This document shows, one piece after another, positions 33,001 to 36,000 of a stretch of 64,000 nt of DNA (position 1 is its first letter; every line of letters starts with the position of its first letter). The stretch is from NCBI RefSeq assembly GCF_057098645.1, contig NZ_CM169472.1. One strand, written 5' to 3'. The position numbers are program-made.

Positions 33001-36000
33001 TGACGCTGACCATCATAGGCGCTTCGAAGGAACTACGGGCATTCCCCGTTGCCGTAACGGTCATGGTTTCAGTAGCAAAAGCAAACGTTGGCAAGGTGGC
33101 AGAAACAGCCAAGGCCAACAAACTCAAACGCAACGAGGTAAATTGCGGACGTGACATAGCGATTCTCCATGAGGAAAATAAAAAATGCTGGCTGCCTGGG
33201 TTAATACCGGGGTGGCTGGCGAAAAATAAATTTATTTAAAATTCAGAGCGATAATATTCGCCGGGTGAGTTTACAGGCGTTTATATCCCATGAAATTGCC
33301 TGATAACTCGGCAATTACGCAAAAGCACGCCCTCTTTGTCAGGCAAAACGATATGCCCCATCAGGAGTGAAGAGAGCTGTGCGTTATCCCTTGCAAATGC
33401 TATGGTTTTGTTATCCATATGGTCGTGTTTTGTTAAATGCAAACGTGATAATGAGAATTATTATCGATCAATTTTTTATGATCAAGTTTTTTTTAACCAC
33501 CATTAACACAATAAACAGGGGGTTATGAAACCTATCCTGCGCCCTGTAAACCACCTTGTTTTTATGGTTATCCCCCCATGCCTCATCACTAAATTTTGTC
33601 GTTAACAGTGATAATTTTTTCTTCTCTTTGCTCTGCAAGCCTCGATATCTCTGGGTTCTCAGCTTTTTCCCGCGATGAAATTTAGTCGGTAACAAGAACG
33701 TTAGCTGACGAAGCATCTTGATAAAAATCAAAAATAAATACGCTTGTAACGCCTTGCGTATTGAATCGACGGTTGTATTTCATATATAACTCAAATGATA
33801 ATCATGATCATTCTCAATTTGATAAGAGTTCTCATATTATGCCAAGGATCATCACCAGGCCGTTTCTTTTTTCCCCACTGACGTTATGTATTTCAGCCGT
33901 GGCCTCTGCCGCGAAGAGCACGGTAAAACGAAAAAAATTGTTTACGGCATTACTGGCTCTTAGCTGGGCTTTTAGCGTAACGGCTGCCGAACGTATCGTG
34001 GTCGCAGGAGGATCGCTGACGGAGCTAATCTACGCGATGGGCGCTGGCGAACGCGTGGTTGGTGTCGATGAAACGACATCTTATCCACCAGAAACCGCCA
34101 AACTGCCGCATATTGGCTACTGGAAACAACTCAGCAGCGAAGGCATTTTGTCACTTCGCCCGGATAGCGTAATTACCTGGCAGGATGCCGGGCCACAAAT
34201 TGTGCTCGACCAACTACGAGCGCAGAAAGTCAACGTCGTCACCCTGCCGCGTGTGCCTGCCACCCTTCAGCAGATGTACGCCAACATTCGCCAACTGGCA
34301 AAAACGCTACAGGTTCCTGAACAAGGCGAGGCGCTGGTGACACAAATCAGCCAACGCATGGAGCGAGTACAGCAAAACGTGGCGGCCAAAAAAGCCCCGG
34401 TTAAAGCCATGTTTATTCTCTCCGCAGGCGGAAGTGCGCCACAAGTTGCCGGTAAAGGCAGCGTCGCGGACGCCATTCTTTCGCTTGCCGGAGCAGAAAA
34501 CGTCGCTCCCCACCAGCAGTACAAAAGCTACAGTGCAGAATCACTGATTGCGGCTAACCCTGAAGTGATTGTCGTAACCTCACAAATGGTCGATGGCGAT
34601 ATTAATCGGCTACGTTCTATTGCTGGAATTACCCACACTGCCGCATGGAAAAACCAGCGCATTATCACCGTTGATCAAAACCTGATTCTGGGAATGGGTC
34701 CGCGTATTGCTGATGTCGTTGAGTCTTTACACCAGCAGCTTTGGCCGCAATAAATGGATTTAAATCAGACGAATGAACGCAAATAACCCCCTGGATCTCA
34801 CGCCACATTTTGCTTTAGACGGTGATCAGCCATTTAAAGACAGGCGCGCCATGATGCCGTTTCGTGGGGCCATTCCAGTTGCCAAAGAGCAACTGGCACA
34901 GACCTGGCAAGAGATGATCAATCAAACGGCATCACCTCGTAAGCGACTGGTTTACCTACACATTCCTTTTTGTGCGACACACTGCACGTTTTGTGGCTTT
35001 TATCAGAACCGTTTTAATGAAGATGCGTGTGCTCATTATACCGACGCCCTGATTCGTGAAATAGAAATGGAAGCGGACAGCGTATTGCATCAGTCTGCCC
35101 CCATCCACGCGGTCTATTTCGGTGGCGGTACGCCTTCCGCGCTTTCGGCACACGATTTGGCCAGAATCATCACCACATTACGAGAAAAGCTGCCACTGGC
35201 CCCTGATTGTGAAATCACTATCGAAGGCCGGGTACTGAATTTTGACGCTGAGCGAATCGATGGTTGTCTTGATGCAGGAGCAAACCGCTTCTCAATTGGT
35301 ATCCAGTCGTTTAACAGCAAAATCCGCAAGAAAATGGCCCGCACCTCGGATGGCCCAACCGCCATTGCGTTTATGGAAAGCCTGGTCAAACGTGACCGTG
35401 CTGCGGTGGTCTGTGACCTGCTGTTTGGCCTGCCGGGTCAGGATGCGCAAACCTGGGAAGAAGATCTGGCTATTGCCCGCGATATCGGTCTCGATGGCGT
35501 CGATCTCTATGCGCTCAATGTCCTGCCCAATACACCGCTGGGCAAAGCCGTGGAAAATGGGCGTACTACCGTGCCCTCTCCGGCAGAACGTCGCGATCTT
35601 TATCTGCAAGGGTGTGACTTCATGGACGAAGCCGGTTGGCGCTGTATTAGTAACAGCCACTGGGGCCGTACCACACGCGAACGCAATCTCTATAACCTGC
35701 TGATAAAACAAGGTGCCGATTGTCTGGCCTTTGGTTCCGGAGCCGGCGGTTCGATTAATGGTTACTCCTGGATGAACGAACGCAATCTTCAGACCTGGCA
35801 TGAATCCGTCGCGGCAGGCAAAAAACCGCTGATGATGATCATGCGTAACGCCGAACGTAATGCGCAGTGGCGTCATACCTTGCAGTCAGGTGTTGAAACA
35901 GCGCGTGTACCGCTGGAGGAACTTACACCACATGCCGAAAAACTCGCGCCGTTACTGGCTCAATGGCACCAAAAAGGTTTAAGTCGCGATGCTTCAACTT

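What the first reader, a model, noticed from the sequence alone, without database searches (positions are those of the whole stretch)
33158..33838. Divergent chuA / chuT control region with two Fur-box candidates
The 680 bp region between divergent chuA and chuT holds two 19-mers close to the Fur consensus: gataatgagaattattatc (33447-33465) and gataatcatgatcattctc (33797-33815). The second sits about 24 nt upstream of the ATG that gives the expected ~304 aa ChuT; the ORF track's longer 330 aa start at 33761 would place the box inside the coding sequence, which supports the shorter start. The first box is about 290 nt upstream of chuA, which implies a long 5' leader or an additional unrecognised site closer to chuA.
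Basis: partly seen in the sequence, partly recalled or inferred. Interest (0 to 1): 0.3.

Follow-up and report, generated by a model that had tools for sequence, protein, structure and literature searches.

The report
Known Fur operators of chuA and chuT
The two iron-repressor (Fur) binding sites between the E. coli haem-uptake genes chuA and chuT are real, each sits on its own promoter, and both have already been mapped and tested experimentally, so the finding is correct but ordinary.

Summary
Both 19-mers lie at the stated coordinates: box 1 at 33447-33465 (2 mismatches to the Fur consensus) and box 2 at 33797-33815 (3 mismatches). They are the only such sites in the 64 kb window (0.02 expected by chance). 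Box 1 is identical in every Escherichia lineage examined, and box 2 differs at one base in E. albertii only.

Fur ChIP-seq in UPEC CFT073 gives two separate peaks whose motif calls are these two 19-mers. The dRNA-seq start site of chuA in O157 Sakai maps to window 33448. Box 1 therefore covers -17 to +2 of the chuA promoter, and the leader is 291 nt long, ending in the Rfam-curated FourU thermometer. I found no further Fur-like site closer to chuA.

The shuT start site mapped by 5'-RACE, 42 nt upstream of the ATG, corresponds to 33797. Box 2 is therefore +1 to +19. The TTG at 33761 that would start the 330-aa ORF is the promoter's -35 hexamer and is not transcribed, so the 304-aa ChuT stands.

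One thing is apparently unreported: a perfect, conserved FNR-type palindrome (TTGAT-N4-ATCAA, 33718-33731) centred at -72.5 of the chuT promoter. That operon encodes the anaerobic haem-degradation enzymes.

The parts
31175..33157 (-). chuA coding sequence (TonB-dependent haem receptor, 660 aa)
   Evidence: ORF list. RefSeq annotation of the 100% identical O145 RM9872 record.
33155..33186 (-). [quoted passage not shown]
   Evidence: Rfam RF02597 shuA_thermo, 60.1 bits against a gathering score of 58, E = 1.3e-8, 32/32 identical to the model consensus. The hairpin folds at -8.2 kcal/mol. Tested by mutagenesis in Kouse 2013.
33158..33448 (-). chuA 5' leader, 291 nt
   Evidence: Sakai dRNA-seq +1 at 4,391,862 (Sy 2022) maps to window 33448 with no indel in the leader. 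RT-PCR in S. dysenteriae brackets the leader at 278-342 nt. The proximal 81 nt are 100% conserved between the EHEC-type and B2-type alleles, while the middle is 27% divergent.
33447..33465 (.). Fur box 1, the operator of the chuA promoter, spanning -17 to +2
   Evidence: 2 mismatches to the consensus. 19/19 invariant in five Escherichia lineages. Identical to the motif under the chuA Fur ChIP-seq peak in CFT073.
33457..33485 (-). chuA core promoter: -35 TTGATC (33485-33480), 17-nt spacer, -10 AATAAT (33462-33457)
   Evidence: Consensus scan. The position fits the mapped +1 at 33448. 33472-33486 is invariant. That these hexamers are the ones used is my inference.
33488..33496 (-). Invariant A-tract directly upstream of the chuA -35, UP-element-like
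   Evidence: Invariant run TTTTTTTAA. Calling it an UP element is inference only.
33718..33731 (.). Perfect FNR-type palindrome TTGAT-AAAA-ATCAA, centred at -72.5 of the chuT promoter. Candidate site, not proven.
   Evidence: 2 matches in 64 kb against 0.13 expected. 8 of 4000 local-composition simulations contain one. It is part of a 17-nt invariant run in a spacer that is 50% invariant; 14 of 20000 permutations reach that run length. No report was found.
33761..33790 (+). chuT core promoter: -35 TTGAAT (33761-33766) and -10 TATAAC/ATATAA (about 33784-33790)
   Evidence: Wei 2017 cloned a 62-nt fragment starting 26 nt upstream of the promoter and ending at -1, which puts the promoter's 5' edge at -36 = 33761. 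The -10..-1 stretch is 13/13 invariant and the -35 is 5/6 invariant. The exact hexamers are my inference.
33791..33815 (.). Fur box 2, the operator of the chuT promoter. The 19-mer 33797-33815 is +1..+19, and an overlapping register 33791-33809 is shifted by 6 bp.
   Evidence: 3 mismatches. The overlapping register has 4 mismatches. 18/19 invariant. Identical to the motif under the chuT Fur ChIP-seq peak. Required for iron regulation of shuT.
33797..33838 (+). chuT 5'UTR (42 nt), which doubles as the shuT RNA thermometer
   Evidence: 5'-RACE start site 42 nt upstream of the ATG. In the predicted hairpin, A14-U18 of the box 2 RNA pair with the Shine-Dalgarno bases AGAGU. U15 and U16 are the residues Wei 2017 mutated. 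The hairpin is weak (-5.8 kcal/mol, z = +0.9), so the fold alone is not evidence.
33839..34753 (+). chuT coding sequence (periplasmic haem-binding protein, 304 aa)
   Evidence: RefSeq start in two alleles. Mapped start site. The solved ShuT structure 2R7A begins at residue 49.

Best explanation
The 681-bp region holds two independent, back-to-back sigma-70 promoters. Each is shut off by its own Fur-Fe(II) operator.

**chuAS promoter.** Box 1 (33447-33465) covers -17 to +2 of the leftward promoter, that is, the -10 hexamer and the start site. Bound Fur therefore excludes RNA polymerase. The transcript carries a 291-nt leader. Published work places Rho-dependent termination, Hfq/sRNA control and, at the 3' end of the leader, the FourU thermometer there.

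**chuTWXYU promoter.** Box 2 (33797-33815, with a second register at 33791-33809) covers about -6 to +19 of the rightward promoter. It blocks open-complex formation or promoter escape. The same 19 nt, once transcribed, form the anti-Shine-Dalgarno arm of the shuT RNA thermometer.

**ChuT start.** ChuT starts at ATG 33839. The upstream TTG at 33761 is the -35 hexamer.

**Shown and inferred.** Shown by others' experiments and mapped here: the two start sites, Fur occupancy, derepression in a fur mutant, and both thermometers. Inferred: the exact promoter hexamers and the steric mechanism of repression.
For: - The sites are exact and non-random.
- There are two separate Fur ChIP-seq peaks with these exact motifs, and chuA and chuT are derepressed 362-fold and 294-fold in a CFT073 fur mutant.
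- The chuA +1 from dRNA-seq gives a 291-nt UTR and maps to 33448.
- The shuT +1 from 5'-RACE is 42 nt upstream of the ATG, with a Fur site at +1..+19 that differs from consensus at 3 positions and is required for iron regulation. All three numbers match the window.
- The -35/-10 pair overlapping box 1 was found by a consensus scan.
- Rfam finds shuA_thermo above its gathering score.
- The phylogenetic footprint across Escherichia picks out exactly box 1 with its promoter and box 2 with its promoter and Shine-Dalgarno sequence.
- No other Fur-like site lies in the chuA leader.
Against: - The shuT start site and operator test were done in S. dysenteriae, not E. coli. I infer sequence identity from the matching numbers (42 nt, 3 mismatches, U15/U16), not from reading the Shigella sequence.
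- The mapped chuA +1 falls on a T of the transcribed strand, 8 nt after the -10. That is slightly unusual, so the true +1 may be off by one.
- The ChIP-seq resolution (peaks 342 bp apart) does not by itself prove that the 19-mers are the contacted bases.
- I found no DNase footprint for either site.
Confidence: 0.95

Rival explanations
1. The two 19-mers are chance matches in AT-rich intergenic DNA, and Fur control is exerted elsewhere.
For: The region is AT-rich (38% GC against 49% for the window), and GATAAT-like hexamers are frequent in it (25 with one mismatch or fewer).
Against: 0.02 sites are expected in 64 kb and two are found, both here. None of 4000 local-composition simulations give two. 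Both are conserved across Escherichia. The ChIP-seq motif calls are identical to them.
Confidence: 0.01
2. A single shared operator, or a Fur-mediated loop between the boxes, controls both promoters jointly rather than one box acting per promoter.
For: The genes are divergent and co-regulated by iron. Fur is known, from general knowledge, to polymerise along AT-rich DNA.
Against: The boxes are 350 bp apart, and each overlaps its own mapped start site. There are two resolved ChIP peaks. A shuT reporter carrying only the shuT promoter and UTR, without box 1, keeps Fur-dependent iron regulation. The spacer between the boxes is poorly conserved.
Confidence: 0.04
3. ChuT starts at TTG 33761 (330 aa), so box 2 lies inside the coding sequence.
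For: The longest ORF begins there.
Against: - The mRNA begins at 33797, 36 nt downstream of that TTG, and RT-PCR primers upstream of the start site gave no product.
- The TTG is the first half of the -35 hexamer.
- RefSeq uses ATG 33839.
- In other genera the protein starts even further downstream, at the position of E. coli residue 29.
Confidence: 0.01
4. Box 1 also drives a rightward transcript that encodes the 26-aa ORF at 33525-33605, which is preceded by AGGGGG.
For: A good Shine-Dalgarno-like AGGGGG lies 4 nt before an ATG, and the stretch TAAACAGGGGGTTA is invariant.
Against: - The ATG itself is AAA or ATA in E. coli E69, E. coli SCPM and E. albertii.
- The frame is broken by 1-nt indels between alleles.
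- The body is among the least conserved parts of the region.
- No sigma-70-like rightward promoter was found there.
Confidence: 0.02

Closest known systems
Fur operators of Shigella dysenteriae shuA/shuT and E. coli chuA/chuT (Wei 2017 PMC5458455; Kouse 2013 PMC3660397; Sy 2022 PMC9002310; Banerjee 2020 PMC7157518; also, as cited in those papers, Torres & Payne 1997 and Nagy 2001)
   Same: It is the same locus. The 19-mers are identical to the published ChIP-seq motifs. The start-site positions match (291-nt chuA leader, 42-nt chuT leader). The FourU element is identical to the Rfam consensus.
   Different: Nothing in the two boxes differs. The window is an O145/EHEC-type allele. Compared with the UPEC (B2) allele it differs by 27% in the middle of the chuA leader, but not in the operators.
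Other Fur-regulated bidirectional promoter regions of E. coli, such as fepD-ybdA (Christoffersen 2001, seen only in the reference list of Wei 2017) and fepA-fes (from my own knowledge)
   Same: Divergent iron-uptake operons are repressed by Fur at sites that overlap the promoters.
   Different: As I recall (not checked here), in the ent/fep regions the divergent promoters are compact and can share overlapping Fur sites. Here the promoters are 350 bp apart with one operator each, and one of them lies entirely downstream of the start site (+1..+19).
Co-oriented receptor-chuT-chuW-chuX-chuY haem loci of Citrobacter, Kluyvera, Klebsiella, Enterobacter, Providencia and Proteus
   Same: ChuT is orthologous (55-84% identity), followed by ORFs the same size as ChuW, ChuX and ChuY.
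   Different: In those genera chuT follows the receptor gene directly on the same strand. It starts MKK... with a signal peptide of about 21 aa, and no Fur-like or FNR-like site lies within 1.1 kb upstream of it. The divergent control region, both boxes and a 28-residue N-terminal extension of ChuT are peculiar to Escherichia and Shigella.

Membership tests
Fur box (E. coli Fur operator) | Close match to the 19-bp inverted repeat GATAATGATAATCATTATC (three GATAAT-like hexamers) | tested here: met
   Box 1 matches 17/19 and box 2 matches 16/19. They are the only such sites in 64 kb against 0.02 expected. Box 2 has an overlapping register shifted by 6 bp.
Fur box (E. coli Fur operator) | Overlaps the promoter or transcription start of the repressed gene | tested here: met
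   Published start sites mapped onto the window place box 1 at -17..+2 of the chuA promoter and box 2 at +1..+19 of the chuT promoter.
Fur box (E. coli Fur operator) | Occupied by Fur in vivo, with the gene derepressed in a fur mutant or under low iron | not testable with these tools
   Reported by others. ChIP-seq peaks at chuA and chuT carry these motifs, and the genes are derepressed 362-fold and 294-fold in CFT073 lacking fur. Iron regulation of shuT depends on the site.
shuA/chuA FourU RNA thermometer (Rfam RF02597) | Scores above the family's gathering threshold and lies directly 5' of the chuA start codon | tested here: met
   60.1 bits against 58, covering the full 32-nt model at 33155-33186 on the minus strand.
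shuT RNA thermometer (Wei 2017) | A hairpin in the 42-nt UTR that pairs the Shine-Dalgarno sequence with +14..+18, including U15 and U16 | tested here: met
   The minimum-free-energy structure pairs A14-U18 with AGAGU of the Shine-Dalgarno region. The stability is not distinguishable from shuffles (z = +0.9), so the fold is consistent with the published element but is not independent evidence.
FNR class I activator site (candidate only) | TTGAT-N4-ATCAA inverted repeat | tested here: met
   Perfect 10/10 match at 33718-33731, invariant in five Escherichia lineages.
FNR class I activator site (candidate only) | Centred near -61.5, -71.5, -82.5 or -92.5 of the activated promoter (spacing rule recalled from my own knowledge of FNR/CRP class I promoters) | tested here: inconclusive
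   The centre is at -72.5 from the 5'-RACE start site 33797, which is 1 bp off the recalled -71.5 position. The start site was mapped in Shigella.
FNR class I activator site (candidate only) | FNR binding and fnr-dependent anaerobic induction of the promoter | not testable with these tools
   No report was found. Barbieri 2017 report FNR effects on chuA, but their fusion fragment maps to 33078-33396 and their predicted site is absent from the window and from all loci.

The most novel reading that the evidence does not exclude
The conserved perfect palindrome TTGATAAAAATCAA (33718-33731), centred at -72.5 of the chuT promoter, may be a functional FNR class I site. If so, chuTWXYU is under combined control: repressed by Fur when iron is plentiful, and boosted by FNR when oxygen is absent. 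[quoted passage not shown] I found no published statement of this. The reporter constructs in Wei 2017 started at -62 and so left the palindrome out.
Probability: 0.4. Interest if true: 0.4.

Novelty: already known. Interest (0 to 1): 0.1.

Why it matters
The finding adds nothing new. Fur repression of chuA and chuT through exactly these two 19-mers, the 291-nt chuA leader and the short ChuT start are all in the literature.

It does have practical value as an annotation check. It confirms that the 330-aa ORF call is wrong, and it shows why: the apparent start codon is the promoter's -35 hexamer.

The side observations are modest leads for people who study haem uptake in pathogenic E. coli:
- a conserved FNR-type site upstream of the operon that encodes anaerobic haem degradation;
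- the fact that this control region and the N-terminal extension of ChuT are specific to Escherichia;
- two hypervariable segments flanking fully conserved operators.

Tried and rejected
1. **Extra Fur site nearer chuA.** I scanned 33100-33900 on both strands, allowing up to 6 of 19 mismatches. Only the two boxes and the shifted register of box 2 appear.

2. **Small ORF 33525-33605 behind an AGGGGG Shine-Dalgarno-like sequence.** Rejected, because the ATG is not conserved and the frame is broken between alleles.

3. **Other Rfam families.** Apart from shuA_thermo, only sub-threshold chance hits appear (snoR25, mir-743, RUF4).

4. **Footprinting beyond Escherichia.** The ChuT-based genome scan returned 33 loci, but outside Escherichia the gene order differs and there is no homologous intergenic region. 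It therefore gave layout information, not a footprint.

5. **Barbieri 2017 FNR site TTGTAATGTTTCAA.** Absent from the window with up to 2 mismatches, and absent from all 42 loci as an exact match.

6. **FNR palindrome as a class II site (-41.5) for its own promoter.** Reading the sequence by eye, I found no acceptable -10 hexamer at the required distance on either strand. This was an inspection, not a computed test.

7. **Carpenter & Payne 2014 on oxygen regulation.** The paper is not held in the library.

8. **Other weak Fur-like 19-mers (near 10046-10187, 11133 and 12261) and the second FNR palindrome (52356).** The annotated records show that those near 10046-10187 lie inside the yhiJ coding sequence, those at 11133 and 12261 inside the next DUF4049 gene, and the palindrome inside the ccp coding sequence. 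I did not pursue them.

Full report
**What is in the sequence**

The window carries the E. coli chu haem-uptake locus. The 681-bp stretch 33158-33838 is 100% identical to E. coli O145 RM9872, and it is present in 2236 of 5426 complete E. coli genomes. chuA (31175-33157) and chuS read leftward. chuT (ATG 33839), chuW, chuX, chuY and chuU read rightward.

Box 1 has 2 mismatches to GATAATGATAATCATTATC and box 2 has 3. No other site in the 64 kb window comes that close, and dinucleotide shuffles predict 0.02 such sites. The region is AT-rich (38% GC), so I repeated the control with sequences simulated from its own composition. None of 4000 simulations held two such sites.

**What the boxes are**

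Three published data sets settle this, and I mapped each onto the window.

1. *Fur occupancy.* Banerjee et al. 2020 (PMC7157518) ran Fur ChIP-seq in UPEC CFT073. Their supplement lists separate peaks for chuA and chuT, 342 bp apart, with motif calls GATAATGAGAATTATTATC and GATAATCATGATCATTCTC. RNA levels of chuA and chuT rise 362-fold and 294-fold in the fur mutant.

2. *chuA start site.* Sy et al. 2022 (PMC9002310) placed the chuA +1 of O157 Sakai at 4,391,862 by dRNA-seq, which gives a 291-nt 5'UTR. I fetched Sakai and aligned it. The chuA ATG is at 4,391,571, the leader has no indel relative to the window, and the +1 maps to 33448. Box 1 is therefore -17..+2 of the chuA promoter. It overlaps the -10 (AATAAT, 33462-33457) of the only sigma-70-like pair found on that strand, whose -35 is TTGATC at 33485-33480.

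3. *chuT start site.* Wei et al. 2017 (PMC5458455) mapped the S. dysenteriae shuT start by 5'-RACE 42 nt upstream of the start codon. They found a 19-nt Fur site at +1..+19, differing from consensus at three positions, that is required for iron regulation. In the window, 33839 - 42 = 33797, the first base of box 2, and box 2 has three mismatches. Their thermometer mutations at U15 and U16 fall on the Us of CAUUCUC, which pair with the Shine-Dalgarno region in my fold. The numbering therefore transfers, although I did not read the Shigella sequence itself.

*The short ChuT start is right.* The mRNA starts at 33797, and RT-PCR primers upstream of that point gave no product. TTG 33761 is therefore not transcribed. 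Wei et al. cloned a 62-nt promoter fragment that began 26 nt upstream of the promoter, which puts the promoter's 5' edge at -36 = 33761. The supposed start codon is the TTG of the -35 hexamer TTGAAT. RefSeq uses ATG 33839 in both alleles I checked.

*The long leader is right.* The leader is 291 nt long and ends in the FourU thermometer, which Rfam finds above its gathering score at 33155-33186.

**Independent evolutionary check**

Between the EHEC-type allele and the B2/UPEC-type allele, the flanking coding sequences differ by 2-3.4%. The operator and promoter blocks differ by 0-4%. Two segments differ far more: 33239-33430 by 27% and 33531-33600 by 21%.

Adding two deep E. coli lineages and E. 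albertii sharpens the picture. The invariant runs are:
- the FourU element and proximal chuA leader;
- box 1 (19/19) with the chuA -35 and an A-tract upstream of it;
- the chuT -10 through box 2 (18/19) to the Shine-Dalgarno sequence;
- a few islands described under side observations below.

The footprint thus recovers the published elements without using them.

**Beyond Escherichia**

A ChuT-based scan of one genome per species returned 33 loci. In Citrobacter, Kluyvera, Klebsiella, Raoultella, Enterobacter, Providencia and Proteus, chuT follows a TonB-dependent receptor gene directly on the same strand. There it begins MKK... with a signal peptide of about 21 aa, and no Fur-like or FNR-like site lies within 1.1 kb upstream of it.

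The divergent control region and both boxes are therefore an Escherichia/Shigella arrangement. In E. coli the codon that corresponds to the ancestral Met is GTA (Val29). ChuT here carries 28 extra N-terminal residues ahead of the conserved signal peptide. The solved ShuT structure starts at residue 49, AAERIVV.

**Mechanism**

Fur-Fe(II) bound at box 1 covers the -10 hexamer and the start site of the chuA promoter. Bound at box 2, with its second register, it covers about -6 to +19 of the chuT promoter. Steric exclusion of RNA polymerase is the standard reading for Fur and is an inference here. Occupancy, derepression and the need for box 2 are shown by others.

Box 2 is used twice: as DNA it is the operator, and as RNA it is the anti-Shine-Dalgarno arm of the thermometer.

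**Side observations**

*FNR-type palindrome.* TTGATAAAAATCAA at 33718-33731 is a perfect FNR-type palindrome.
- It has 2 matches in 64 kb against 0.13 expected.
- 8 of 4000 local-composition simulations contain one.
- It sits in a 17-nt invariant run inside a spacer that is only 50% invariant, and 14 of 20000 permutations reach that run length.
- Its centre is at -72.5 of the chuT promoter.
- The operon encodes ChuW and ChuY, the anaerobic haem-degradation enzymes, so oxygen control would make sense.
- I found no report of it.
- Barbieri et al. 2017 link FNR to chuA, but through a different predicted site that is absent here, and their fusion fragment lies at 33078-33396.

This is a lead, not a finding.

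*Unexplained islands.* Two further invariant islands have no known element to account for them: TAAACAGGGGGTTA (33512-33525) and TTAGCTGACGAA (33701-33712).

**Verdict**

Interest is low.

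Noticed in passing
window 33718-33731: A perfect FNR-consensus palindrome, TTGAT-AAAA-ATCAA, centred at -72.5 of the chuT promoter. It is invariant across E. coli lineages and E. albertii inside a poorly conserved spacer. I found no publication describing it. The operon downstream encodes the anaerobic haem-degradation enzymes ChuW and ChuY.
   Followed up: partly
window 33239-33430 and 33531-33600: Two segments differ by 27% and 21% between the EHEC-type and B2/UPEC-type alleles, while the flanking coding sequences differ by only 2-3.4%. 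That is more than neutral drift should give and suggests a mosaic origin. The Hfq-binding peak at +160..+200 reported by Sy 2022 (33249-33289) lies in the most divergent part.
   Followed up: partly
window 33839-33925 (ChuT residues 1-29); loci L011-L039: Escherichia ChuT has a 28-residue N-terminal extension ahead of the conserved signal peptide. Orthologues in other Enterobacterales start MKK... at the position of E. coli Val29 (GTA) and lie directly downstream of a co-oriented receptor gene. The divergent chuA/chuT layout is therefore derived.
   Followed up: partly
window 33512-33525 and 33701-33712: The islands TAAACAGGGGGTTA (-64..-77 of the chuA promoter) and TTAGCTGACGAA (-96..-85 of the chuT promoter) are invariant across Escherichia. 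No known element explains them.
   Followed up: no
window 33525-33605 (+): A 26-aa ORF preceded by AGGGGG. Its ATG is AAA or ATA in other Escherichia lineages and its frame is broken by indels between alleles, so it is not a conserved gene.
   Followed up: yes
L005 (E. coli WP4-S17-ESBL-03), locus 2231-3000: An IS26 transposase gene lies next to the region, and the match to the window starts only at query base 271 (window 33428). The record has a second matching place elsewhere. In this strain the chuA leader therefore appears to be separated from box 1 and its promoter.
   Followed up: no
L007 (contig JAIJJM010000641.1, labelled Collinsella sp. MAG): A 1.9-kb contig in an actinobacterial MAG carries chuT at 98% identity together with box 1, box 2 and the palindrome unchanged. 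It is most likely a mis-binned E. coli contig.
   Followed up: no
window 52356-52369: The only other perfect TTGAT-N4-ATCAA in the window lies inside the coding sequence of ccp (cytochrome c peroxidase), about 680 nt from its start codon.
   Followed up: partly
window 10046-10187, 11133-11151 and 12261-12279: Weak Fur-like 19-mers with 4-5 mismatches. They lie inside the coding sequences of yhiJ and the neighbouring DUF4049 gene, in AT-rich DNA, and are probably chance matches.
   Followed up: partly
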